Below, one piece after another: positions 6,174 through 18,413 of a DNA stretch of 32,000 nt. The translations under genes were made by a program, and so were the position numbers. Every line of letters starts with the position of its first letter. Position 1 is the first letter of the stretch. The notes under the pieces were generated by a model that was given only the letters and a program-made list of their open reading frames with translations, was not told the origin of the DNA and searched no databases. Origin of the DNA: Candidatus Saccharimonadota bacterium (GTDB lineage Bacteria; Patescibacteriota; Gracilibacteria; BD1-5; UBA6164). The stretch covers positions 660,001 through 692,000 of the forward strand of contig OY782392.1 in the NCBI GenBank assembly GCA_963677765.1. The letters are read 5' to 3'.

Positions 6174-8441
6174 ATGAAAAAAACTATTTTGTCTTTGGTT
6201 TTTTTATCTATGTTTTCTTATGCTAATGCTGCAGTTGAAGATAATTCTATAATTGATGCTCTAAAAGATAAAGAAGCTCAGGTTATTAAAACAGACTTTT
6301 GATTAAAAAGTTTTAATAGTTGTCAAGATATGGAGGATGTTATGTCTAGCTATATAAAAGAGTATTGGAAAAATAATAAATGAAACTTTTATCCTCGTTT
6401 TTGAGGTTGAATAATGGTTGATGATATGGTTATGTTTGATGCTGTCGAATCAGTTGCTGATGTTTGATCTATATCAAAACAATCAGTTTCAAATGAGGTT
6501 TATTCAAATACTGATGATTTTTCAAAAACTAATACTCAAGTAGCATGAGTTGATGAATCTGATATAGTTAAAACTGATTGAAAACATATTTATTATTATA
6601 ATTCAAAAGATAAATATGTTTATATAGTTTGAGTTGATGAAAAAGAAGTTCTAAAAAAGATAAAAGTTCCTTCTAGTTTTTGAAACCCTGTTTTATATTT
6701 ATGAGATAATACTCTTACAATATTATCTACTTGATATACTGATTATGATTATTCAACATCTTGATATTGGTTAAATAGAAATAGTAAAACATTTGTTATT
6801 AGTTTTGATGTTAGTGATGTTAAAAAACCAAAAATGGAAAAACTATACATTGCAGATGGTTATTTAGCTAATTCTAGAAAAATAGGTGATTATGTTTATG
6901 TTATTTCAAATAATAGTTTTAATATACCTTATTATACTTTTAAATCAGAAGATGATATAGATTTTGATTTATCTAAATCTTTTCCTAAAAGTATTGATAT
7001 ATCAAAAACTAATGATAAATCTGAATATAATTTAAGATTAAATTGAAAAACTTATCCTTACAATATAAAAGCATGAAATGTTGCTGATTGTAATGATATT
7101 GAATATGTTTTTCCTGATAGTGATACTTTAAGTGAGTATGATTTTAGTCCTAGTTATAATGTAATATCTGTTATTGATGTAAAAAATCCTAATTCAGAAG
7201 TAAAAACTAATGTTGTTATATGAAGTAACAATGAAATCTATATGAGTACTTCTAACTTATATATGACTTCAAATATGTATAAAACTTATGAATTTAGATG
7301 TCCTGTTAATGCTAGATGTTTTGCTCCATGGTATCCAAGAGGTAATAACACAGTAATACATAAACTAAATATTGACTGACAAAAATTAAGTTATCAAGAC
7401 TCTACTATTGTTCCATGATCTCCACTTACTCAATATAGTATGGACGAATATAAATGAAATTTTAGAATTCTTACAAAAATTACAGCTTGGTCAAATCCTG
7501 AATGAGAAGCTTATACTGATTTATATATATTGGATGAAAACTTAGATTTAGAATGAAGTTTAACAAAACTTTGATTATGAGAAGAATTTAAATCTAGTAG
7601 ATATATTTGAGATAAATTATATTTAATAACTTTTGAACAAGTTGATCCATTATTTGTTATAGATGTTGAAAACCCATCTTCTCCAAAAGTATTATGAGAA
7701 TTAAAAATACCATGATATAGTACATATTTACATCCATATGATGAAAATCATCTTATATGAATTTGATATGATACTATGGAAAATAATTGGGGATGAGTTA
7801 TTAATGCATGAGTAAAAGTAGATTTATATGAAATAGATTTTGATAGAGAGGCTGCTTGAGTTTCATCAAATCAAGAAAATAAATGAGATATTTTTATTCA
7901 ACAAAAATTTACAAAAACATTTTGAGAAAGATGAAGTTATAGTGAGGCATTAAATAATCCAAGAATGTTTATGTGGAATTCAGATAAACAAAAATTATTT
8001 TTACCAGCTACTCTTTATAAAAATGCTGAAGATGATATATATAGAAATATTGATTATTTTAATGGTTTATTAACTATAAATATTGATAAAGATAAATGAA
8101 TTTCTGAAGAGTATAGAATTAGTCATATTGATACAAAATGATTAGAAGAAGAAAGAGTTAAAGAATGTAGTAAATATACATGAAATTCATGAGAAAAATG
8201 TCATACTTTATTAGATTGATCAGAATATTGTGAGCCTGTTTCAAGAACTTATGTACCTAAATATTGTTATAAAGACTCTAGTATTTGAGAGTATATAGCA
8301 TCAAAAAATTGGACATTTAGAGATAGTTTTATTAAAAGAGCTTTATGGATTGGTGATAATAGTTATGCTATTTCAGATAATGAAATTTCATCACATAAAA
8401 TCTCTAACTGATCAGTTAATTATAGTGTTGAACTTAAATAA
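6174..8441 (+). CDS. Secreted beta-propeller domain protein (PF09826-like, 755 aa)
   Basis: Signal peptide MKKTILSLVFLSMFSYANA. The motifs TNTQVAGVDESDIVKTDGKHIYYY and RYIGDKLYLITFEQVDPLFVIDVENPSSPKVLGELKIPGYSTYLHPYDENHLIGIGYD match the secreted beta-propeller family. The frame is consistent with track ORF 6834..7046. Confidence 0.75.
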
Positions 8442-8446
8442 TAAAA

Positions 8447-8477
8447 AAAGAAGCAAAAAAAATGCTTCTTTTTTTGT
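8447..8477 (+). terminator. Rho-independent terminator after the beta-propeller gene
   Basis: The stem aaagaagca / tgcttcttt has an A7 loop and is followed by a T-run. Confidence 0.7.
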
Positions 8478-8532
8478 TGTACAAAAAAAATATGTTAAAT
8501 TATTTATATATAATATTAAAAAATAAATTATT

Positions 8533-9876
8533 ATGAATGATTTAATATTTTCATGAGCTTGACTTGCTATAGGTTTAGCTTGATTGTGAATTGCTATATG
8601 ACAAGGTTTTTTGTTTTATAAGGCTATGGATGTAATAGGGAAAAACCCTAGGTCTTCAGGTTTTTTTCTTACTATAACTATTTTATGAATTGCATTAGTA
8701 GAGTCAGCAGGTATTTATGGTTTAATAATAGCTTTTCAAATACTTAGTGCTTCTTTTATTGATCCATTAACAGCTATATGAGTAGGTTCTGCAATATGAT
8801 TGGCATGATTATGAGTTGGTATATGAGAATGAATTCTTGTATGATCAGCTATAGAAGCTATGAATAGAGATACAGAAAATAGGAATAGAATTCTTACATA
8901 TATGATATTGTTTTTAGCATTAGTAGAGTCAGCTGCTATATATGGGTTAATAATAGCTTTTCAATTGTTAACAAAATTAGAACTATCTCCTTATTTGGCT
9001 ATTTGAGCATGATTATCAATTTGACTTACTTGATTATGAGTTGGTATATGAGAGTGAATATTGTCTTGAAAATCTATTTCACTTATGTCACAAAAGCCTA
9101 ATCAAAAATGATATCTTCTTACATCAACTATATTATGAATTGCCTTAGTTGAAACTGCTGCAATATATTGACTTATAATGTCTTTTTCGATTATTGAATC
9201 AGATTTAATTATTCCTATGTCGGCAATATGAGCTGGGTTGGCTGTTTGACTTGCATGATTATGAGTTTGAATAGGTGAGTGATTATTAGTTTCATGAAGT
9301 TATGAATCAATGTTAACTCATAGGGCTAATAAATCTAAGGTTCTTACATATATGATATTATTTTTAGCTTTAGTAGAATCAGCCGCAATATATGGTTTAA
9401 TCATAGGTTTGCAAATTTTATCTAATTGATCAGTAGAATGATTAGCTTCAATTTGAGCATGATTAGCAATTTGATTAGCATGATTATGAGTAGGTATTTG
9501 AGAATGATTTATGTCTTCTAAATCTATTAAAGTAATTTCTAAAAGACCATCTCTTTCAATGTTTTTTCTTACAATAACTATTCTAGCTATTGCATTAGTA
9601 GAATCAGCAGCTATATATTGACTTATAATATCAATGCAAATTTTGTCTACTAATGAAATTTTATGATTTGCTGCTGTTTGAGCATGATTAGCAATTTGAT
9701 TAGCATGATTATGAGCTTGAGTAGGTGAGTGATTTTTGACATGAGCTTCTTTTGATTCTATTGCTAGAAATCCTAAGGTTAAACAAAGAGTTTTAACATA
9801 TATGATATTATGAGTTGCATTAGTAGAATCAGCTGCAATATATGGTTTAATTATAGCATTTACAATATTGTCTTAG
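8533..9876 (+). CDS. atpE: F-type ATP synthase subunit c as a six-hairpin covalent fusion (447 aa, predicted 12 TM helices), paralog 1
   Basis: Hand translation with TGA=Gly gives one ORF with no TAA or TAG. It contains six tandem copies of G-rich helix 1 (GAGLAIGLAGLGVGIGEG), a polar loop, and helix 2 (LALVESAAIYGLIIAF). The Glu codons at 8701, 8926, 9151, 9376, 9601 and 9826 are exactly 225 nt apart. The gene is invisible in the standard code because TGA is dense. Confidence 0.9.
8533..9876 (+). repeat. Intragenic tandem repeat, 6 units of 225 bp (sub-structured as 3 x 450 bp)
   Basis: The block gcattagtaga(a/g)tcagc(a/t)gc(t/a)atatatgg(t/g)tta and its close variants recur with an exact 225-nt period. 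Odd and even units differ systematically. Confidence 0.9.
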
Positions 9877-9982
9877 CTTATTAAAAAAAGTAAAAAAAAT
9901 AAATTTGATTTTTTTTATTTTAAAAATATTATAGACATAAAAAGCTTTATTTTCTTTTCTTAAGAAATAGCTTATTATAGAG

Positions 9983-10026
9983 AAAAAAGCAAGGTAAAAA
10001 AATATTTTTTTACTTGCTTTTTTTTT
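9983..10026 (+). terminator. Terminator-like hairpin with a T9 tail between the first c6 gene and atpB
   Basis: The stem gcaaggtaaaaaaa / tttttttacttgc (one bulged G) is followed by nine Ts. It lies in a 209-bp intergenic gap, whereas other atp genes are 19-64 bp apart. Confidence 0.55.
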
Positions 10027-10085
10027 GTGTTTCAATATACTTCTCGCGTTTTATTTAATTATGTATAATTTTTTAATACAATAAT

Positions 10086-10952
10086 ATGGACACATTAAAT
10101 ACTTTTTTGTCTGCATATGTTATCTCATGATGAGATGGGCATTCCGCATGACTAAATCCTTATTTTATATGAGTTCTAATTGAGCTTGTACTATTTGGGT
10201 TAATATACTTTTTTATAACAAAAAGGCCTAACTCGTCTTTTTCTGTTATGTTTGACATGTTATATGATAAGGTTTATTCATTTTTTGAAGATATTCTTTG
10301 AACAGAAGAAAAAAGATGGACAAAACTATATATTACATCTATGTTTTTTGTAATATTAATATCAAACTTATTAGGTGTTATTTTAGAAATAGCTTGAGTA
10401 TGATTACCATTTTTACATCATGCAGTATCTATACCTACATCTGATATAAACTTTAATGTTGCTATGGCAATAGTATGAGTTTTAATTGTAATTTATGAAC
10501 AATTTAAATTCTTATGATTTTGAAAAGCTATATACGAATACTTGCCAGTTCTTGGTAAAAATTATATACCTTATGAAAAATGAAATTTAAATAAGTTTAT
10601 AGATTTTCCTTTATTCTTATTGGTTAAAGTTTTTGATATTATAATATCAATATTTTTATGATTATTAGAAATAGTAGGTCATTGAGCTAAAATTATTTCG
10701 TTATCATTTAGGTTATTTGGTAATATTACCTCAGGTTGAATGCTTCTTGCTATGTTATTGGCATGAGTAGAATTGCTTACTTGATCTATATCAGGTTTTG
10801 TAACTGGATTGTTTGGTAATTCTATAGAAGTTAACTTCCCAGTATTAATACCTATAATATTACATTTACAATGATTACTAGTAGCTTTAATACAAGCTTT
10901 AGTTTTTCCACTTTTGATAGCTATATTTATTAAGGTTGCAAAAGTGCACTAA
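10086..10952 (+). CDS. atpB: F-type ATP synthase subunit a (288 aa)
   Basis: It contains the essential-Arg motif ISLSFRLFGNITSGG and a C-terminal helix, LHLQGLLVALIQALVFPLLIAIFI. It is a multi-TM protein, and the start/stop frame is consistent. Confidence 0.93.
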
Positions 10953-10990: not shown

Positions 10991-12340
10991 ATGGAAAATT
11001 TGGTTAATTTTATATGAGCTTGACTTGCAATTTGATTAGCTTGAATCTGAGTTGCAATTGGTCAATGAATATTATGAAAAGCTTCAGTTGAAGCTATGTG
11101 AAAAAATAAAGATTTATCTTCTTTTTTCTTAACAATTACAATTCTTGGTATAGCATTAGTAGAATCGGCAGCTATATATGGTTTGATAGTAGCTTTTAAA
11201 ATATTATCTACTACTGATATAACAATTTGAGCTTCAATTTGAGCATGATTAGCTATCTGATTAGCATGATTATGAGCATGAGTATGAGAATGAAAACTTA
11301 TAGCTTGAGCTATAAATGCTATGAGTAAAAATCCAAAATTAAAATCAAAAATAATGACATTTATGGTTTTATTCGTTGCATTAGTAGAATCAGCAGCTAT
11401 ATATGGTTTAGTTATCTCATTTAAAATATTAGGAGATCCTACATTTTCTTCTGAAGCATTTATCGGTATGTGATTAGCTGTATGATTAGCATGATTATGA
11501 GTTTCTATTTGAGAATGAATACTTGCTAATAAAGCTATGGATGTTATGGGTAAACAAGAAAAAATGATTTGATTTTTCTTAACTGTAACAATTCTTGGTA
11601 TAGCATTAGTAGAATCAGCTGCAATATATGGTTTAGTAGTTGCATTTGATATTTTCTCTAAAGATTTATGATTAATGGCTGCTATCTGAGCAGGTACTGC
11701 AATTTGATTTGCATGATTATGAGCATGAATTTGAGAATGAATACTTGTTTCTGGTGCTATGTCATCAATGTCTAGAAATCCAAAAATTAAAGCTAAATTA
11801 ATGACTTTTATGGTATTGTTTATAGCTTTAGTTGAGGTTACAGCAATATATGGTTTAATTATTGCATTTAGAATTTCAGGTTCTTATGATCCATCTATTG
11901 ATCAATTAGTTTATGTATGAGCATGATTAGCTATCTGATTAGCATGATTATGAGTTGGTATCTGAAGATGATATTTATCAGAAGAATCAATGAAAATAAT
12001 GTGAAAAAACCCTTCTATAATTGGTTTTATGTTAACAGTTTCTATATTAGGGGTTGCATTAGTAGAATCAGCTGCAATATATGCATTAGTTGTTTCATTT
12101 AAAATATTAGGTACTGAATGATTAATCTGATTAGCTTCTGCTTGAGCATGATTAGCTATTTGATTAGCATGATTATGAGCATGAGTATGAGAAGGTTTAT
12201 TAATAAAGGGTGCTGTTAAAGGTATAAATATAAATCCAGAACAAAAAGGTAAAACTTTAGCATTTATGGTATTATTTGTTGCTTTAGTTGAAGTAGTCGC
12301 TATTTACTGATTACTAATAGCATTTAGAATAATTGGTTAA
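10991..12340 (+). CDS. atpE: F-type ATP synthase subunit c as a six-hairpin covalent fusion (449 aa), paralog 2
   Basis: I translated every codon by hand with TGA=Gly and found no TAA or TAG. There are six c hairpins with Glu codons at 11162, 11387, 11612, 11834, 12065 and 12290 (spacing 225, 225, 222, 231, 225 nt). By hand count there are roughly 50 in-frame TGA codons against about 24 GGN. Confidence 0.92.
10991..12340 (+). repeat. Intragenic tandem repeat, 6 units of ~225 bp
   Basis: It has the same periodic c-hairpin unit as 8533-9876. The motif gcattagtagaatcagc...atatatggttta recurs. Confidence 0.9.
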
Positions 12341-12369: not shown

Positions 12370-12843
12370 ATGGAAAATTTAAAATTAGAATTGATTATTG
12401 CTGCTATGATCAATTTCTGAATATTGTTTTTTATGTTTAAGCATTTCTTAGGTGAAAAATTAGCAAAAGCTATTGAAGATAGAAGAAAGTTTCTTCAAGC
12501 TTCTGCTGAAGCCGAAGAACAAGCTAAACAAAAACTAGAAGAAGCAGAAAAACAAGTAGAAGAAATATTAAATGAAGCTAGAGCAAAAGCTTCTGATATT
12601 GAAAAATCTGCAGATGAATTATCTAAACAAAATACTGCTAAAGCTTTAGAAAAAGCAGAAAAAGAAGCTGAATATATAATTTCAAGTGCTAGAAGTCAAA
12701 TAGATAAAGAAAAATTAGAAATGGAAAATTCTATGAGATCAAAAATTTTGGATTTATCTTTAAGATTAACTTCTAAAATATTCTCTAAAGAAACTGCTAA
12801 TAAAGACTTTTTAGAAAAAGAATTAAATGTATTAACTAAATAA
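12370..12843 (+). CDS. atpF: F-type ATP synthase subunit b (157 aa)
   Basis: An N-terminal TM helix (LELIIAAMINFGILFFMF) is followed by a long charged coiled coil (RRKFLQASAEAEEQAKQKLEEAEKQ...). The gene sits in the canonical position between c and delta. Confidence 0.88.
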
Positions 12844-12850
12844 TTATTAT

Positions 12851-13210
12851 ATGAGTGATATAAAAAACTCTATTAATAATCTTGATTTAAATCAATTAAA
12901 ACAACTTTTATCTGAATTAAAATTGTACAAAGATTTAAACAAGCAATTATGAAATAGATGAAAAGATTTGTATAATAGATTAAAAACTTGAGAAAGAACT
13001 TATTTAGTTGAATATTTTCCAGTTATTTCAGAAGATTTAGCTTATGAAATATCTTCTAAAGTTTATAAACAAGTTTTTAATTCAGAGATACAAAGAGATA
13101 ATATAAAGTTTTTACCTAAAGATACTATTTTAGGTTGAGTAAAAGTTTATGTTGATGACAAAGTTGTTGACTTAAGCTACCAAAAAATCGAAAAAATGAT
13201 TACAAAATAA
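12851..13210 (+). CDS. atpH: F-type ATP synthase subunit delta (OSCP), unusually short at 119 aa
   Basis: It lies between atpF and atpA. The C-terminal KDTILGGVKVYVDDKVVDLSYQKIEKM resembles the OSCP C-terminal GG-x-V-x-VGD-x-V-x-D-x-S motif. The N-terminal part is much shorter than the usual ~180-aa delta. Confidence 0.6.
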
Positions 13211-13253: not shown

Positions 13254-14759
13254 ATGTCAAACGACTTATTAAATAATATTATAAATGAAATAGAAAACAA
13301 AATAGATTCTGTTGAAGTTAATCCAGAAGTATGAAATGTTGGGGAAGTTTTCTATTTATGAGATGGTGTTGCTAAAGTTTCTGGTTTATGAAACTTATCT
13401 TACAATGAAGTAGTTGATTTTGAATCAGGAGCTAGAGGTTTAGCTTTAAATCTTGAAGAACACTTTGTATGAGTTGTTATCCTTTCTGGTTTTAGTAAAA
13501 TTAAAGAAGGTGAAAAAGCTTTCTCTACAGGTAAAACTTTAGAGGTGCCAGTAGGTCAAGGTTTAGTTGGTAGGGTTGTTGACCCATTAGGTAATCCAAT
13601 TGATGGTTTATGAGAAATCAAAGCTACTGAATATTACCCAGTTGAAAGAGTTGCTACAGGTGTTATGTCAAGAAAATCTGTACATGAACCAATGTCTACA
13701 GGTATCAAAGCTATTGATGCATTAGTACCAATTGGTAGAGGGCAAAGAGAATTAATTATTGGTGATAGACAAACTGGTAAAACTCAAGTTGCTATAGATG
13801 CAATATTAAATCAAAAAGGACAATGAGTTACTTGTGTATATGTAGCTATTGGTCAAAAAGAAGGTAAAATTGCTAGAATAGTTGAAGAATTAAAGAAAAG
13901 AGGAGCAATGGATTATACTATTGTTGTTGCTGCTGGAGCATCTACTCCTGCTGCAATGCAATATTTAGCTCCATATGCTGGTTGTGCTATGGCTGAATAT
14001 TTTATGTTCAATAGTGCTCACTCATTAATTATATATGATGATTTAACTAAACAAGCTAATGCTTATAGAGAAATGTCATTATTATTAAGAAGACCACCAG
14101 GTAGAGAAGCTTATCCATGAGATGTTTTTTACGTTCACTCAAGATTATTAGAAAGAGCTTCAAAATTAAATGATGAATTAGGTGCTGGTTCAATGACAGC
14201 ATTACCTATTATTGAAACTCAAGCAGGTGATGTTTCTGCTTATATACCTACGAATGTAATTTCTATTACTGATGGGCAAATTTTCTTAGAATCAAACTTA
14301 TTTAATGCAGGTCAAAAACCAGCAATTAATGTATGATTATCAGTATCGAGAGTTTGAGGTGCTGCTCAAATTAAAGGTATGAAAAAAGTATCAGGTACTT
14401 TAAAATTAGACTTAGCTCAATATAGAGAATTAGCTGCATTTTCACAATTCGCTTCTGATTTAGATGCTGATACAAAAGCACAATTAGACAGATGAGCAAG
14501 AATGATGGAATTATTAAAACAAGGTGTTTATTCTCCAGTTACTGTTGAAAAACAAATTTGTTCTATATATGCAGGTGCTAAAGGTTATTTAGATCAAATT
14601 GAAACTTCTAAAGTTACTAAATTTGAATTAGATTTATATACTTCTTTAGAAGATGAAAAATCTATTTTAGAATCTATTTCAAAAGAAAAAGTATTAAACG
14701 ACGAATCAGAAGCTAAACTTAAAACAGTTATCGAAAAAGTTGTAGAAATATATAAATAA
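13254..14759 (+). CDS. atpA: F-type ATP synthase subunit alpha (501 aa)
   Basis: P-loop [31 protein letters not shown], and [32 protein letters not shown]. The gene joins track ORFs 13908..14120 and 14502..14759 in a single frame. Confidence 0.98.
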
Positions 14760-14786: not shown

Positions 14787-15701
14787 ATGGCAAATGCTAA
14801 AGAAATAAAAAGAAAAATTGGGTCGATAAAAAATACTTGAAAAATTACTAAGGCTATGGAGCTTATTTCAACTGTAAAGATGAAAAAAGCTCAAAACTTA
14901 GCAATGGAAAAAAGAAACTTTGTTTTAGAAATGTTAAAAATATTTCTAAGAGTAGAAGATTACTTATCTGAGTTTCCATTGTTTTGAGAAAATTCAAATT
15001 GAACAAAAACATTGGCTGTTGTTGTTACTTCTAATAAATGATTATGTTGAGGTTATAACGTTAATGTTATGAAAAAAGTTAATTCATATATAAAAGAAAC
15101 AGGAGAAGATTTAGATTTTGTTTCTATATGAAAAAAAGCTTCAAATTTTGTTGCAAAAACTTGAAATAATCTTATAGCTGACTTTAGTGATGATTTCACA
15201 GATAATTTAGATCCAGTTTTTACAAAAAAAATATCTGAGTTATTAAGAGAAGAGTTTCTTACTTGAAAATATAATAAAGTAGTTGTTTTTTATAATTTTT
15301 ATGTAAATACAATTAAACAAATTCCAGTTGCGAAAACTTCTTTTCCAATAGATTCAGATGATATTAAAAAATATTTATTTTCTGTTTTAGAAGATCATTT
15401 TGATATTGAATCAGAAATTAAGGAAATGGAAAATACATATTCGTATGATATTGAGCCATCACCTGAAGAATTAGTTAATGATGTTATGCCAATTATTTTG
15501 GATATGATGTTCTTTGATACTTTACTTAATGCTAAAGCTTCTGAACATAGTGCAAGAATGATTGCTATGAAAAATGCAAAAGACTCAGCTAATAAAATAG
15601 CTTGAGCTTTAACTCTAAAATATAACAAAGCAAGACAAGCTAGTATTACTAGTGAAGTTTCTGAAATTACAGCATGAGTTGAATCAATGAAGGATGCTTA
15701 A
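14787..15701 (+). CDS. atpG: F-type ATP synthase subunit gamma (304 aa)
   Basis: The N-terminus is [36 protein letters not shown]. The C-terminus is [44 protein letters not shown]. The full hand translation has no TAA or TAG. Confidence 0.95.
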
Positions 15702-15764: not shown

Positions 15765-16133
15765 ATGAAATTATTATTTATTGTTCTAAGAGTTCTTATA
15801 AACTTAATTCTAGCATCTTTTTATGTTTTGATATCAATAATTTTTTGAAACTTTATATATTGATTAATTTTATCTATTTTAGGTAAACAAGTTCCAGGAC
15901 CACAAGACCCTATTCATTTTAAATTAGCAATTTTAGCTATATTCTTATCTCTTATATTTTCTTTACTTTTTAGAAAGTATTTGTATTTAAGTGTTATTTC
16001 TTTATTTAGAGATTTTGTTTTAAAAATTGAAAAAAAAGAAAAAAAAATAAATTCTAATAATGAAGGAACTATTAATAAAGATTCATCTTTAGAAGATGAA
16101 TTAGAAATATATGTAAACAAAGAAATAAAATAA
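15765..16133 (+). CDS. Small membrane protein of unknown function, embedded in the atp operon (122 aa)
   Basis: Uninterrupted ORF under table 25. It has 2-3 hydrophobic helices (LLFIVLRVLINLILASFYVLISIIF, FKLAILAIFLSLIFSLLF) and then a Lys/Glu-rich tail. I recognised no family. An AtpI-like assembly role is speculation. Confidence 0.55.
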
Positions 16134-16135
16134 TT

Positions 16136-16537
16136 ATGATATTAAATGTATATACTGACTGATGATCTAGATGAAATCCATGAAAGGCTTGATTATGAGT
16201 TTATATCACGGATAGCAAATGATTGGAAGTTGAAAAAAGGTATAAAAGTTTATGAATCAAGACAAATAATGAAGCAGAATATTTATGAGCTTATTATTGA
16301 ATAAAAAGAGCAATAGAGCTATGATGAAATGAAATTAATCTTTTTATGGATTCAAAATTAGTAATAGAACAATTATTATGAAATTGGAAAATTAAAAAAG
16401 ATGAACTTAGAGTAATAAATAATGATATTAATCAACTTGTTAAACAAAACAATACAAAAGTAAACTATACTTGGATTGCAAGAGAAAAAAATAAAGAAGC
16501 CGATAGGCTTAGTAATGTTGCAATGGATTTAGATTAA
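16136..16537 (+). CDS. rnhA: RNase H type 1 domain protein (133 aa)
   Basis: MILNVYTDGGSRGNPGKAGLGVYI...NNEAEYLGAYYGIKRAIELG...FMDSKLVIEQL...KEADRLSNVAMD carries the DEDD catalytic pattern of RNase HI. It starts 2 nt after the preceding stop. Confidence 0.85.
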
Positions 16538-16561: not shown

Positions 16562-17962
<1,401 letters not shown>

Positions 17963-17981: not shown

Positions 17982-18413
17982 ATGAAACTAAAAATATTTT
18001 CTTTTTCATGAGAAAGCTTTAGTTCTGACAATGTTGTTTCTGCAACTTTGATGACTTCAATTTGAGAAATTACTCTATTAGATAATCATGCTCCTTTATT
18101 AACAAGTATAAAACCATCTACTATGTATGTTATATATACTGATGATAAATGAGTTGAAAAAAGAGATGATTTCGCAATTTGAAAATGAGTTGTTGAAGTT
18201 AGTGCTAACAATGTAAAAGTTATGGCTGATATGCTTGTAGATATCGATGATCTTGATACTGAAGCTGCAGAAAGAGCTAGAGAACAAGCTGTTAAACTTA
18301 TGGAAAAATATAGAGATTCAAAAGATAAAATGGACATGGAAAAATTTGTTGAAGCTGAGGATATGTTATTAAAATCAATAGCTCAATTAAAATTAAATGA
18401 TACATTAAAATAA
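17982..18413 (+). CDS. atpC: F-type ATP synthase subunit epsilon (143 aa)
   Basis: It follows atpD. An N-terminal beta-sandwich region (GEITLLDNHAPLLTSIKP) is followed by a C-terminal helical hairpin (EAAERAREQAVKLMEKY). It is in frame with track ORF 18222..18413. Confidence 0.9.

What the first reader, a model, noticed from the sequence alone, without database searches (positions are those of the whole stretch)
8533..9876. First atpE gene encodes six F-type c-subunit hairpins fused in one 447-aa polypeptide
Under table 25 this is a single ORF with no TAA or TAG. It consists of six head-to-tail copies of a complete c subunit. Each copy has the G-rich helix 1 (e.g. GAGLAIGLAGLGVGIGEG), a short polar loop, and helix 2 with the carboxylate (LALVESAAIYGLIIAF). 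The Glu codons at 8701, 8926, 9151, 9376, 9601 and 9826 are exactly 75 codons apart. The hairpins are joined by 8-12-residue linkers (SASFIDPLTA, TKLELSPYLA, ESDLIIPMSA, SNGSVEGLAS, STNEILGFAA). Both termini of a c hairpin lie on the same membrane face, so such linkers are topologically feasible. Ordinary bacterial atpE encodes one hairpin. The known exceptions are the duplicated c1 of Acetobacterium woodii and the multi-hairpin A-type proteolipids of some methanogens (3 in Methanocaldococcus jannaschii, 13 in Methanopyrus kandleri). I am not aware of a described six-hairpin F-type c subunit.
Basis: partly seen in the sequence, partly recalled or inferred. Interest (0 to 1): 0.9.

Follow-up and report, generated by a model that had tools for sequence, protein, structure and literature searches.

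The report
Six-hairpin F-type ATP synthase c subunit
A bacterium that reads UGA as glycine encodes the rotor subunit of its ordinary F-type ATP synthase as six covalently joined copies in one protein, has a second such gene next to it, and has relatives with 2 to 13 copies per gene, an arrangement I could not find described for bacterial F-type enzymes.

Summary
Under genetic code 25, window 8533-9876 (+) is one 447-codon ORF.

It is not an artefact:
- The six units are only 52-72 % identical at DNA level.
- An independent metagenome contig carries the same ORF, with dN/dS 0.03.
- All six Glu are invariant in 15 orthologues.
- Hairpin i matches hairpin i in related species.

The gene lies in a canonical F1Fo operon: c6A | a | c6B | b | short delta | alpha | gamma | beta | epsilon. 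A second six-hairpin gene (c6B) is at 10991-12340.

In 75 related genomes, c genes carry 2, 4, 6, 7, 8, 10, 12 or 13 hairpins, nearly always built from a two-hairpin unit.

My best reading is that c6A is a real rotor polypeptide forming half of a 12-hairpin ring, either with a second copy or with c6B. That gives 12 ion sites and 4 ions per ATP. The site chemistry resembles the Na+-type two-carboxylate motif. The ring composition and the coupling ion are inferred, not shown.

I found no published description, so I class it as a new variant of a known kind.

The parts
8533..9876 (+). c6A: six-hairpin F-type c-subunit gene (447 aa, code 25, 51 UGA-Gly codons)
   Evidence: Six PF00137 stretches, E 3.5e-83. 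dN/dS 0.03 against the independent contig L076.
8533..8757 (+). Hairpin 1 (odd type). Helix-1 Gln (GIAIGQG), loop GKNPRSS, helix-2 ALVESAGIY with Glu codon at 8701.
8758..8982 (+). Hairpin 2 (even type). Helix-1 Glu (GIGEG), helix-2 ALVESAAIY with Glu codon at 8926.
8983..9207 (+). Hairpin 3 (odd type). Helix-1 Glu, helix-2 ALVETAAIY with Glu codon at 9151.
9208..9432 (+). Hairpin 4 (even type). Helix-1 Glu, helix-2 ALVESAAIY with Glu codon at 9376.
9433..9657 (+). Hairpin 5 (odd type). Helix-1 Glu, helix-2 ALVESAAIY with Glu codon at 9601.
9658..9873 (+). Hairpin 6 (even type). Helix-1 Glu, loop ARNPKVKQR, helix-2 ALVESAAIY with Glu codon at 9826.
8438..8480 (+). Terminator-like hairpin followed by a U-run, upstream of c6A (end of the beta-propeller gene)
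   Evidence: dG -18.2 kcal/mol, z -8.3
9980..10026 (+). Terminator-like hairpin followed by a U-run, between c6A and atpB
   Evidence: dG -17.6 kcal/mol, z -4.5. Function inferred.
10086..10952 (+). atpB (subunit a), with the stator Arg in SFRLFGN (Arg209)
10991..12340 (+). c6B: second six-hairpin c gene (449 aa, 51 UGA). Hairpin 5 has Arg at the helix-1 site. Hairpins 4 and 6 read E-V-T and E-V-V.
12370..12843 (+). atpF (subunit b)
12851..13210 (+). Short delta/OSCP-like ORF (119 aa)
   Evidence: weak hit, C-terminal part of the profile only. Homologues found at the same position in related operons.
13254..14759 (+). atpA (alpha)
   Evidence: TIGR00962, 790 bits
14787..15701 (+). atpG (gamma)
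16562..17962 (+). atpD (beta)
   Evidence: E 3e-197 to F1 beta
17982..18413 (+). atpC (epsilon)

Best explanation
c6A is a genuine, selected gene for a single polypeptide of six covalently linked F-type c hairpins (12 transmembrane helices). It belongs to a Gracilibacteria-type organism that decodes UGA as Gly.

Each hairpin keeps the mid-membrane Glu of helix 2, so each carries an ion-binding site. The hairpins alternate between two sequence types (AB)x3. This means the evolutionary unit was a two-hairpin c subunit that was then triplicated.

Inferred: the protein forms half of a 12-hairpin rotor ring of the organism's only F1Fo ATP synthase/ATPase. The other half is either a second c6A or the paralogue c6B, which is encoded after atpB. 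That would give 12 sites per turn and 4 ions per ATP. Short periplasmic linkers of 5 to 10 residues join helix 2 of one hairpin to helix 1 of the next.

The site residues are E/Q32, E65, S/T66 and Y70 in F. nucleatum numbering. They resemble the Na+-type two-carboxylate motif, so Na+ or mixed Na+/H+ coupling is plausible.

Shown: the gene, its architecture, selection on it, and its F-type context. Inferred: ring size, ring partners, the coupling ion and the direction of operation.
For: - **Architecture.** There are six PF00137 domains. The register is exact at 75 codons. The AlphaFold2 model of the 70 % orthologue has six helical hairpins, pLDDT 91 and pTM 0.91. Adjacent hairpins superpose on A. 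woodii c1 at 2.4 A.
- **Genetic code.** 14 of 15 UGA codons in beta align to Gly.
- **Real and selected.**
  - The repeats share 52-72 % nt identity.
  - An independent contig, L076, is 95 % identical with 64 substitutions, 7 conservative aa changes, no indels and dN/dS 0.032.
  - All six Glu are invariant in 15 orthologues at 46-70 % identity.
  - The hairpins show positional orthology.
  - The same kind of gene occurs in closed genomes CP042461 (c4|a|c4) and CP017714 (c7).
- **F-type context.** Subunits a (with the stator Arg), b, delta, alpha, gamma, beta and epsilon are all present.
- **Feasibility.** An engineered single-chain c10 with 4-residue linkers is active.
- **Ring of 12.**
  - Among genes with four or more hairpins, 34 of 43 have 4, 6 or 12.
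  - Loci with ample upstream sequence and a single c gene have 4, 6, 10 or 12.
  - Five species have 6+6.
  - c12 lies within the known F-type range of 8-17.
  - A ring of only 5-6 hairpins is considered too small for the rest of the enzyme.
- **Ion site.** Alignment to F. nucleatum c (3zk1) and its ligand list.
Against: - There is no protein-level evidence that the 45-kDa polypeptide exists or stays uncleaved.
- Ring size and partners are not determined. Relatives with c12 or c13 plus a c6 in one operon (L006-L008) do not fit a simple 'one A plus one B' rule. The counts 7, 8, 10 and 13 do not divide 12.
- c6A is flanked by terminator-like hairpins. It may therefore be expressed separately from the rest of the operon.
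- Position 67 is Ala, not the Thr that holds the Na+-bound water. Moreira et al. argued for H+ in Vampirococcus from one hairpin.
Confidence: 0.85

Rival explanations
1. The six units are an assembly artefact (repeat expansion or collapse), or a mis-joined tandem array of separate atpE genes.
For: Tandem repeats are error-prone in metagenome assemblies. Many related MAG contigs break just upstream of atpB.
Against: The units share only 52-72 % nt identity and the longest shared exact word is 39 nt. An independent JGI contig has the identical length and frame. Orthologues in more than 20 species, including closed genomes, have the same architecture with positional orthology. There are no stops, start codons or intergenic spacers between units.
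Confidence: 0.01
2. The frame is not translated as read. UGA is a stop or Trp here, and the locus is a pseudogene or a set of fragments.
For: Table 11 gives 51 stops. No tRNA genes lie in the window to confirm a tRNA-Gly(UCA). Many database copies are translated with Trp.
Against: 14 of 15 UGA codons in beta align to Gly, including the P-loop. UGA falls at the GxGxGxG positions of every hairpin. dN/dS is 0.03 under code 25, and no UGA codon differs between the two copies. All other genes in the window also need code 25.
Confidence: 0.01
3. The polypeptide is a precursor. It is cleaved in the linkers, or internally initiated, to give ordinary one- or two-hairpin c subunits.
For: No protein data exclude it. 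The linkers are conserved among orthologues (for example F-[IV]-D-P-[LIV]-T-A), which could reflect recognition sites.
Against: The five linkers share no common motif with one another. There are no consistent internal Met or SD signals. No such processing is known for c subunits. Engineered fused c subunits work uncleaved. The archaeal 3- and 13-hairpin genes show that natural fusions of this kind exist. AlphaFold2 models the linkers as short, tight turns.
Confidence: 0.04
4. One c6A polypeptide closes on itself into a six-hairpin ring. This gives 2 ions per ATP, a high-gear ATP-driven pump suited to a non-respiring cell.
For: Gracilibacteria lack respiratory chains, so the enzyme may run as an ATPase. 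A low ion/ATP ratio favours pumping. The pTM of 0.91 shows one compact fold.
Against: The smallest known F-type ring has 8 hairpins. A ring of 5-6 hairpins is judged too small for the rest of the enzyme. Relatives encode 10, 12 and 13 hairpins in one chain with the same a, gamma and epsilon subunits. Four-hairpin genes could not close at all.
Confidence: 0.08
5. c6A and c6B never share a ring. They form alternative homodimeric rotors (A2 or B2) with different ion-site chemistry, used under different conditions.
For: c6A is bracketed by terminator-like hairpins. Some lineages have only the upstream type (c7 in HOT-871), and others show only the downstream type near atpB. L006-L008 combine c12/c13 with c6, which is hard to fit into one ring. 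The B sites are heterogeneous (Arg, EVT, EVV) while the A sites are uniform.
Against: A. woodii co-assembles different c gene products from one operon into one ring. Five species conserve exactly 6+6. There are no expression data. This is a variant of the best explanation rather than a contradiction, since both predict 12 hairpins.
Confidence: 0.35

Closest known systems
Acetobacterium woodii c1 (F-type, two-hairpin 'V-like' c subunit; PDB 4bem_J)
   Same: It is encoded in an F1Fo operon, has covalently fused hairpins and has Na+-type site residues. It is the best sequence hit (E 7e-18) and the best structural hit (2.4 A over 155 columns).
   Different: c1 has two hairpins and only one ion site. 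It is a minor component (1:9) beside single-hairpin c2/c3. The gene here has six hairpins, all six Glu are retained, and there is no single-hairpin c gene in the window.
Archaeal A1Ao multi-hairpin proteolipids (3 hairpins in Methanocaldococcus jannaschii, 13 in Methanopyrus kandleri)
   Same: They are natural fusions of more than two hairpins in one polypeptide. The 13-hairpin gene presumably encodes a whole ring, as the c12 and c13 genes of the relatives found here would.
   Different: Those belong to archaeal A-type enzymes with A/B catalytic subunits. This enzyme is a canonical bacterial F-type.
Engineered genetically fused c subunits (E. coli c2/c3; Bacillus PS3 single-chain c10)
   Same: Hairpins are joined on the periplasmic side by short linkers, and the enzyme remains active.
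   Different: Those are artificial and made of identical repeats with GSAG linkers. The natural hairpins here have diverged to 45-65 % identity and carry distinct, conserved linkers.
Fusobacterium nucleatum two-carboxylate Na+ c subunit (PDB 3zk1)
   Same: Helix-1 Glu (GIGEG) together with helix-2 E-S...Y occurs in hairpins 2 to 6.
   Different: The F. nucleatum subunit has a single hairpin and forms a c11 ring. Thr67, which holds the Na+-bound water, is Ala here, and hairpin 1 has Gln32.
V-type 16-kDa proteolipids / Enterococcus hirae NtpK
   Same: The repeat unit is two hairpins. The structural similarity gives TMt about 0.8 over two hairpins.
   Different: V-type proteolipids have lost one carboxylate per pair and belong to V/A-type enzymes. 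Here every hairpin keeps its Glu.

Membership tests
F-type ATP synthase subunit c (PF00137 / TIGR01260) | Helical-hairpin domain matching the family profile | tested here: met
   Six PF00137 stretches, 274 bits. Six stretches also match TIGR01260 and several F0F1 c equivalogs.
F-type ATP synthase subunit c (PF00137 / TIGR01260) | Essential mid-membrane carboxylate in helix 2 | tested here: met
   Glu is present in all six hairpins and invariant in 15 orthologues.
F-type ATP synthase subunit c (PF00137 / TIGR01260) | Gly-rich GxGxGxG packing motif in helix 1 | tested here: met
   It is present in all six hairpins once UGA is read as Gly.
F-type ATP synthase subunit c (PF00137 / TIGR01260) | Encoded with F-type a, b, delta, alpha, gamma, beta and epsilon | tested here: met
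   Alpha scores 790 bits on TIGR00962 (cutoff 484).
F-type ATP synthase subunit c (PF00137 / TIGR01260) | One hairpin (about 70-90 aa) per polypeptide | tested here: not met
   Six hairpins in 447 aa. This is the point of the finding.
F-type ATP synthase subunit c (PF00137 / TIGR01260) | Assembles into the rotor ring and translocates ions | not testable with these tools
   This needs biochemistry or cryo-EM.
V/A-type proteolipid (NtpK/AtpK) | Part of an enzyme with A/B-type catalytic subunits | tested here: not met
   Alpha and beta are F-type. V-type B models score far below their cutoffs.
V/A-type proteolipid (NtpK/AtpK) | Sequence membership in a V-type K model | tested here: inconclusive
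   NF011483 scores 232 bits against a cutoff of 188, but only by summing five repeated stretches. The F-type models match all six hairpins.
A. woodii-type hybrid rotor | A two-hairpin c1 with one lost site, plus single-hairpin c2/c3 genes in the operon | tested here: not met
   No site is lost, and there is no single-hairpin c gene in the window.
Na+-binding c subunit (I. tartaricus / F. nucleatum motif) | Q/E32, E65, S/T66 and Y70 side chains | tested here: met
   All six hairpins of c6A have them.
Na+-binding c subunit (I. tartaricus / F. nucleatum motif) | Thr67 holding the Na+-coordinating water | tested here: not met
   Ala is at this position in all six hairpins.
Na+-binding c subunit (I. 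tartaricus / F. nucleatum motif) | Na+-dependent activity, or Na+ protection from DCCD | not testable with these tools
   This needs biochemistry.
N-ATPase (alternate F1Fo) | Alpha, c and a subunits pass the alt_F1F0 models | tested here: not met
   Alpha scores 608 against a cutoff of 750, c scores 129.8 against 130.85, and a scores 24.6 against 302.

The most novel reading that the evidence does not exclude
Bacteria of the Gracilibacteria/Absconditabacteria clade, and at least two unrelated lineages, build the F-type rotor ring from a few large polypeptides or from a single one. Hairpin number has evolved by duplication of a two-hairpin unit (2, 4, 6, 8, 10, 12, with 7 and 13 as odd cases). 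In these organisms the c-ring stoichiometry, and hence the ion/ATP ratio, would be written directly in the gene. The ring can also be built asymmetrically, with non-equivalent ion sites. An example is the conserved Arg-bearing hairpin and the E-V-T / E-V-V sites of the B-type gene. In the window organism the ring would be one c6A plus one c6B, a fixed heterodimeric c12.
Probability: 0.5. Interest if true: 0.85.

Novelty: new variant of a known kind. Interest (0 to 1): 0.75.

Why it matters
The number of c hairpins per ring sets the ion cost of ATP. In normal F-type enzymes it cannot be read from the genome, because the ring self-assembles from identical 8-kDa monomers.

Natural half-ring genes (c6), third-ring genes (c4) and whole-ring genes (c10, c12, c13) in a bacterial F-type enzyme would matter in four ways:
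1. They would make ring stoichiometry predictable from sequence.
2. They would show that the multiplication of rotor hairpins seen on the A/V-type side of the family has also happened on the F-type side, without loss of ion sites.
3. They would provide natural asymmetric rings in which individual sites differ. So far that has only been available through engineered single-chain c10.
4. They bear on the unresolved question of what the ATP synthase does in CPR bacteria, which lack a respiratory chain. It is the one enzyme complex clearly seen at protein level in a BD1-5 bacterium (PMC4032931).

There is also a practical warning. Most public copies are translated with UGA as Trp or are fragmented, and a published ion-specificity call for Vampirococcus rested on one of ten hairpins read with Trp in place of Gly.

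Tried and rejected
- **Structure prediction of the window protein.** I used the 70 %-identical orthologue P0005 instead. Coordinates are not returned, so I could not measure arc curvature, which would give the ring size.
- **Fold search against the PDB.** It returned only two-hairpin matches (TMq 0.30 or less), so it says nothing about higher-order packing.
- **Promoter scan.** It was uninformative: 39 sites found against 35 expected.
- **tRNA scan.** It found no tRNA-Gly(UCA) in the window.
- **A+B heteromer or homodimers.** I tried to decide this from co-occurrence across genomes. Many MAG contigs end within 50-350 nt of atpB, so 'B-only' is reliable for only about 11 loci, and the pattern does not discriminate.
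- **NCBIfam V-type K hit.** I rejected it as evidence for V-type membership, because it passes its cutoff only by summing repeats.
- **Literature.** Eight full-text searches found no description of multi-hairpin F-type c subunits in these bacteria. Subscription-only papers are not covered.
- **Pfam scan using window references.** It failed because the tool translates with table 11. I redid it with typed code-25 sequences.
Full report
**1. Observation**

Window 8533-9876 (+) read with the standard bacterial code is broken by 51 TGA codons, but it has no TAA or TAG before 9874. Read with code 25 (UGA = Gly) it is one 447-aa protein made of six 75-residue units. Pfam scores it as PF00137 (ATP-synt_C) with six separate stretches, E = 3.5e-83. 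The helix-2 Glu codons are at 8701, 8926, 9151, 9376, 9601 and 9826, exactly 75 codons apart. At this base composition (25 % G+C), a 447-codon frame free of TAA/TAG has a chance of about 3e-15.

**2. Genetic code**

The code assignment does not rest on the c gene alone. In atpD, 14 of 15 TGA codons align with Gly of the Bacillus PS3 beta subunit. These include both in the Walker A motif GGAGVGKT. All long ORFs of the window need code 25. Homologues are labelled Candidatus Gracilibacteria or Vampirococcus, which are lineages known to use this code.

**3. It is not an artefact**

- The six units are only 52-72 % identical at DNA level and 47-64 % at protein level. The longest exact word shared by any two units is 39 nt. 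Repeat collapse or expansion during assembly is therefore not a concern.
- An independent JGI metagenome contig (L076) covers window 8439-10713 at 96 % identity. Its c6A copy has the same length and frame, 64 substitutions, only 7 conservative amino-acid changes and dN/dS = 0.032.
- In 15 full-length orthologues at 46-70 % identity, all six helix-2 Glu are invariant.
- Hairpin i of the window protein is most similar to hairpin i of the orthologues in L001 and L002 for all six hairpins. The same holds for the paralogue c6B against L003, L014 and L029. The six-hairpin arrangement therefore predates these species.
- Genes of the same kind occur in closed genomes: CP042461 (c4 | a | c4) and CP017714 (c7).

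**4. Context**

The gene heads a canonical F1Fo operon, annotated:

| Gene | Coordinates | Note |
|---|---|---|
| c6A | 8533-9876 | six hairpins |
| atpB | 10086-10952 | stator Arg in SFRLFGN |
| c6B | 10991-12340 | second six-hairpin gene, 449 aa, six PF00137 stretches, 57 % identical to c6A |
| atpF | 12370-12843 | subunit b |
| delta-like ORF | 12851-13210 | short, 119 aa |
| atpA | 13254-14759 | alpha |
| atpG | 14787-15701 | gamma |
| inserted ORFs | 15765-16537 | a TM protein and RNase HI |
| atpD | 16562-17962 | beta |
| atpC | 17982-18413 | epsilon |

Alpha passes the F-type equivalog TIGR00962 (790 bits, cutoff 484) and fails the N-ATPase model. Beta matches F1 beta at 3e-197. So c6B sits at the usual atpE position, and c6A sits where atpI usually lies. 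Strong terminator-like hairpins with U-runs flank c6A (8438-8480, z -8.3; about 9980-10026, z -4.5). It may therefore be transcribed on its own, which is an inference. The surrounding genes are chromosomal housekeeping genes: ProRS, sigma factors, DnaG and GDH.

**5. Anatomy**

Odd and even hairpins fall into two clades in both genes:
- Odd hairpins have a loop like GKNP or KRP and the helix-2 sequence FFLTITILGIALVES.
- Even hairpins have a loop like NRNPxxKxK and the helix-2 sequence LTYMILFLALVES.

The repeat unit is therefore a two-hairpin module, present three times.

In F. nucleatum numbering, every hairpin of c6A has E65, S66 (T in hairpin 3) and Y70. Position 32 is Gln in hairpin 1 and Glu in hairpins 2 to 6. 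Position 67 is Ala. The crystallographic Na+ ligands of F. nucleatum are E32, V63:O, E65, S66 and a water held by T67 and A64:O, with Y70 hydrogen-bonded to E65. All side-chain ligands are therefore present except the Thr that positions the water.

c6B is heterogeneous. Hairpin 5 has Arg at position 32. Hairpins 4 and 6 read E-V-T and E-V-V. This C-terminal module is conserved in B-type genes of many relatives.

AlphaFold2 on the 70 %-identical orthologue P0005 gives pLDDT 91.4 and pTM 0.91. The model has twelve long helices in six hairpins and non-helical linkers of 5 to 7 residues. Neighbouring hairpins superpose on the two-hairpin c1 of A. woodii at 2.4 A. No solved chain covers more than about 30 % of the model.

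**6. Relatives**

A protein search found about 200 homologues. Their lengths cluster at about 296, 447, 524, 600-612 and 750 aa. I fetched 75 loci from species-representative genomes and annotated them under code 25 with a hairpin HMM built from the 12 hairpins of the window.

Complete c genes by hairpin number:

| Hairpins per gene | 1 | 2 | 4 | 6 | 7 | 8 | 10 | 12 | 13 |
|---|---|---|---|---|---|---|---|---|---|
| Genes | 6 | 38 | 7 | 20 | 3 | 1 | 2 | 7 | 3 |

Operon types:
- c6 | a | c6: the window, L003, L005, and the two MAGs split over L002/L032 and L004/L029.
- c6 | a | c4: L001, the closest relative.
- c4 | a | c4: L019.
- c12 or c13 | a | c6: L006 to L008.
- c12 | a | c2: L009.
- c7 | a with no downstream c gene: L027, L038 and L039.
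- A single downstream gene with 4, 6, 10 or 12 hairpins, in loci with several kb of upstream sequence.

The c8, c10 and c12 B-type genes keep the first two and last four hairpins of c6B and add pairs in the middle. Two-hairpin genes (about 150 aa) dominate in Absconditabacteria/SR1 and exist even where no UGA is involved (for example L053, L055). They look like the ancestral unit.

Multi-hairpin F-type c genes also occur outside this clade:
- An eight-hairpin, 612-aa gene lies in a complete a-c-b-delta-alpha-gamma-beta-epsilon operon read with the standard code (L077/L078).
- A Desulfatitalea operon has a four-hairpin gene, in which only two hairpins keep Glu, plus a single-hairpin gene (L079).

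**7. How it most likely works**

Shown: c6A is a conserved, selected gene for six fused F-type c hairpins. Each hairpin has an intact carboxylate site, and the gene lies in an otherwise ordinary F1Fo operon.

Established background: both termini of a c hairpin face the periplasm. Engineered fusions up to a single-chain c10 with four-residue linkers give active enzyme.

Inferred: the polypeptide is half of a 12-hairpin ring.
- The commonest multi-hairpin counts (4, 6, 12) all divide 12.
- Whole-ring-sized genes (10, 12, 13) fall in the known F-type range of 8-17.
- Five species keep exactly 6+6.
- A ring of six hairpins is considered too small for the rest of the enzyme.

Twelve sites per turn would mean 4 ions per ATP.

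Whether the ring is A+B, A2 or B2 cannot be decided here. The A. woodii precedent and the conserved 6+6 favour co-assembly. Three things favour alternative rotors: the terminators around c6A, lineages with only one type, and the c12/c13 + c6 operons.

The coupling ion is open. The motif is closest to the Na+-type two-carboxylate site, but it lacks Thr67. The H+ call by Moreira et al. for Vampirococcus was based on a single E-V-T-type hairpin out of ten, written with Trp for UGA.

The direction of operation (synthase or ATP-driven pump) is also open, because these bacteria lack respiratory chains. The enzyme is, however, expressed in a BD1-5 bacterium.

**8. Comparison with what is known**

A 2022 summary lists archaeal A-type c subunits with 1, 2, 3 or 13 hairpins. 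For F-type enzymes it lists only the A. woodii hybrid ring, with one two-hairpin c1 that has lost a site. The present gene is an F-type c subunit by every sequence and context criterion except the defining 'one hairpin per chain'. It is not a V/A-type proteolipid, because the catalytic subunits are F-type and no carboxylate is lost. It is not an A. woodii-type hybrid, because there is no single-hairpin gene and no lost site.

Eight full-text searches found no paper describing multi-hairpin c subunits in Gracilibacteria, Absconditabacteria or CPR bacteria. Genome papers on a closed Gracilibacteria genome and on Vampirococcus discuss the ATP synthase without mentioning it. The sequences are public, often as 'ATP synthase F0 subunit C' or 'hypothetical protein', and mostly mistranslated with Trp.

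**9. Verdict**

I class it as a new variant of a known kind. Multi-hairpin rotor subunits are known, but not six-hairpin ones with all sites active in a bacterial F-type enzyme. The series from 2 to 13 hairpins is also undescribed as far as I could find.

The main uncertainties are protein-level confirmation, ring composition and size, the coupling ion, and the limits of the literature I could search.

Noticed in passing
window 10991-12340 (+): The second six-hairpin c gene (c6B) has non-equivalent sites. Hairpin 5 has Arg where the others have Glu or Gln (GIGRGYL). Hairpins 4 and 6 read E-V-T and E-V-V instead of E-S-A. This module is conserved in B-type genes of many relatives, including Vampirococcus. 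An Arg next to the site Glu could neutralise that site.
   Followed up: partly
window 12851-13210 (+): The delta/OSCP-like subunit is only 119 aa. It matches only positions 117-162 of the 172-position OSCP profile (E 0.005). The N-terminal domain that normally binds alpha appears to be missing or unrecognisable.
   Followed up: no
window 15765-16537 (+): Two genes are inserted between atpG and atpD: a 122-aa membrane protein with no Pfam hit, and an RNase HI (PF00075/PF13456).
   Followed up: no
window 8438-8480 and 9980-10026: Strong terminator-like hairpins with U-runs bracket c6A (z -8.3 and -4.5). This suggests it is a separate transcription unit from atpB-c6B-atpF and the genes that follow.
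   Followed up: partly
L006, L007, L008 (c12/c13 | a | c6 operons): In the same operon, the upstream 12- or 13-hairpin gene uses 80-92 UGA-Gly codons while the downstream six-hairpin gene uses only 1-5. This hints at different origin or different translational control.
   Followed up: no
L013, L017, L025, L028, L034 (c12); L007, L008, L010 (c13); L012, L026 (c10): Single polypeptides of 750-990 aa carry 10, 12 or 13 F-type hairpins, each with the helix-2 Glu. They are presumably whole single-chain rotor rings. Vampirococcus lugosii has a 10-hairpin gene.
   Followed up: partly
L077/L078 and L079: Multi-hairpin F-type c genes occur outside the UGA-Gly clade. One is an 8-hairpin, 612-aa gene in a complete standard-code F-type operon. 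The other is in a Desulfatitalea operon with atpI, a, a 4-hairpin c (only two Glu retained), a 1-hairpin c, b and b'.
   Followed up: partly
L022, L024, L029, L031-L035 and others: Many MAG contigs end within 50-350 nt upstream of atpB. This is probably because the repetitive upstream c gene breaks short-read assemblies, so 'single c gene' operons are under-determined.
   Followed up: partly
Public protein records (P0002, P0006-P0062) and PMC8080830 Suppl. Fig. 6: Most database copies of these proteins are translated with UGA as Trp. The published Vampirococcus alignment used to infer H+ coupling shows one hairpin of ten, with Trp in place of Gly.
   Followed up: yes
The true tryptic peptide across the hairpin 1-2 junction runs from Ser41 to Arg112 (72 residues, very hydrophobic). 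Standard bottom-up proteomics would probably miss it.
   Followed up: yes
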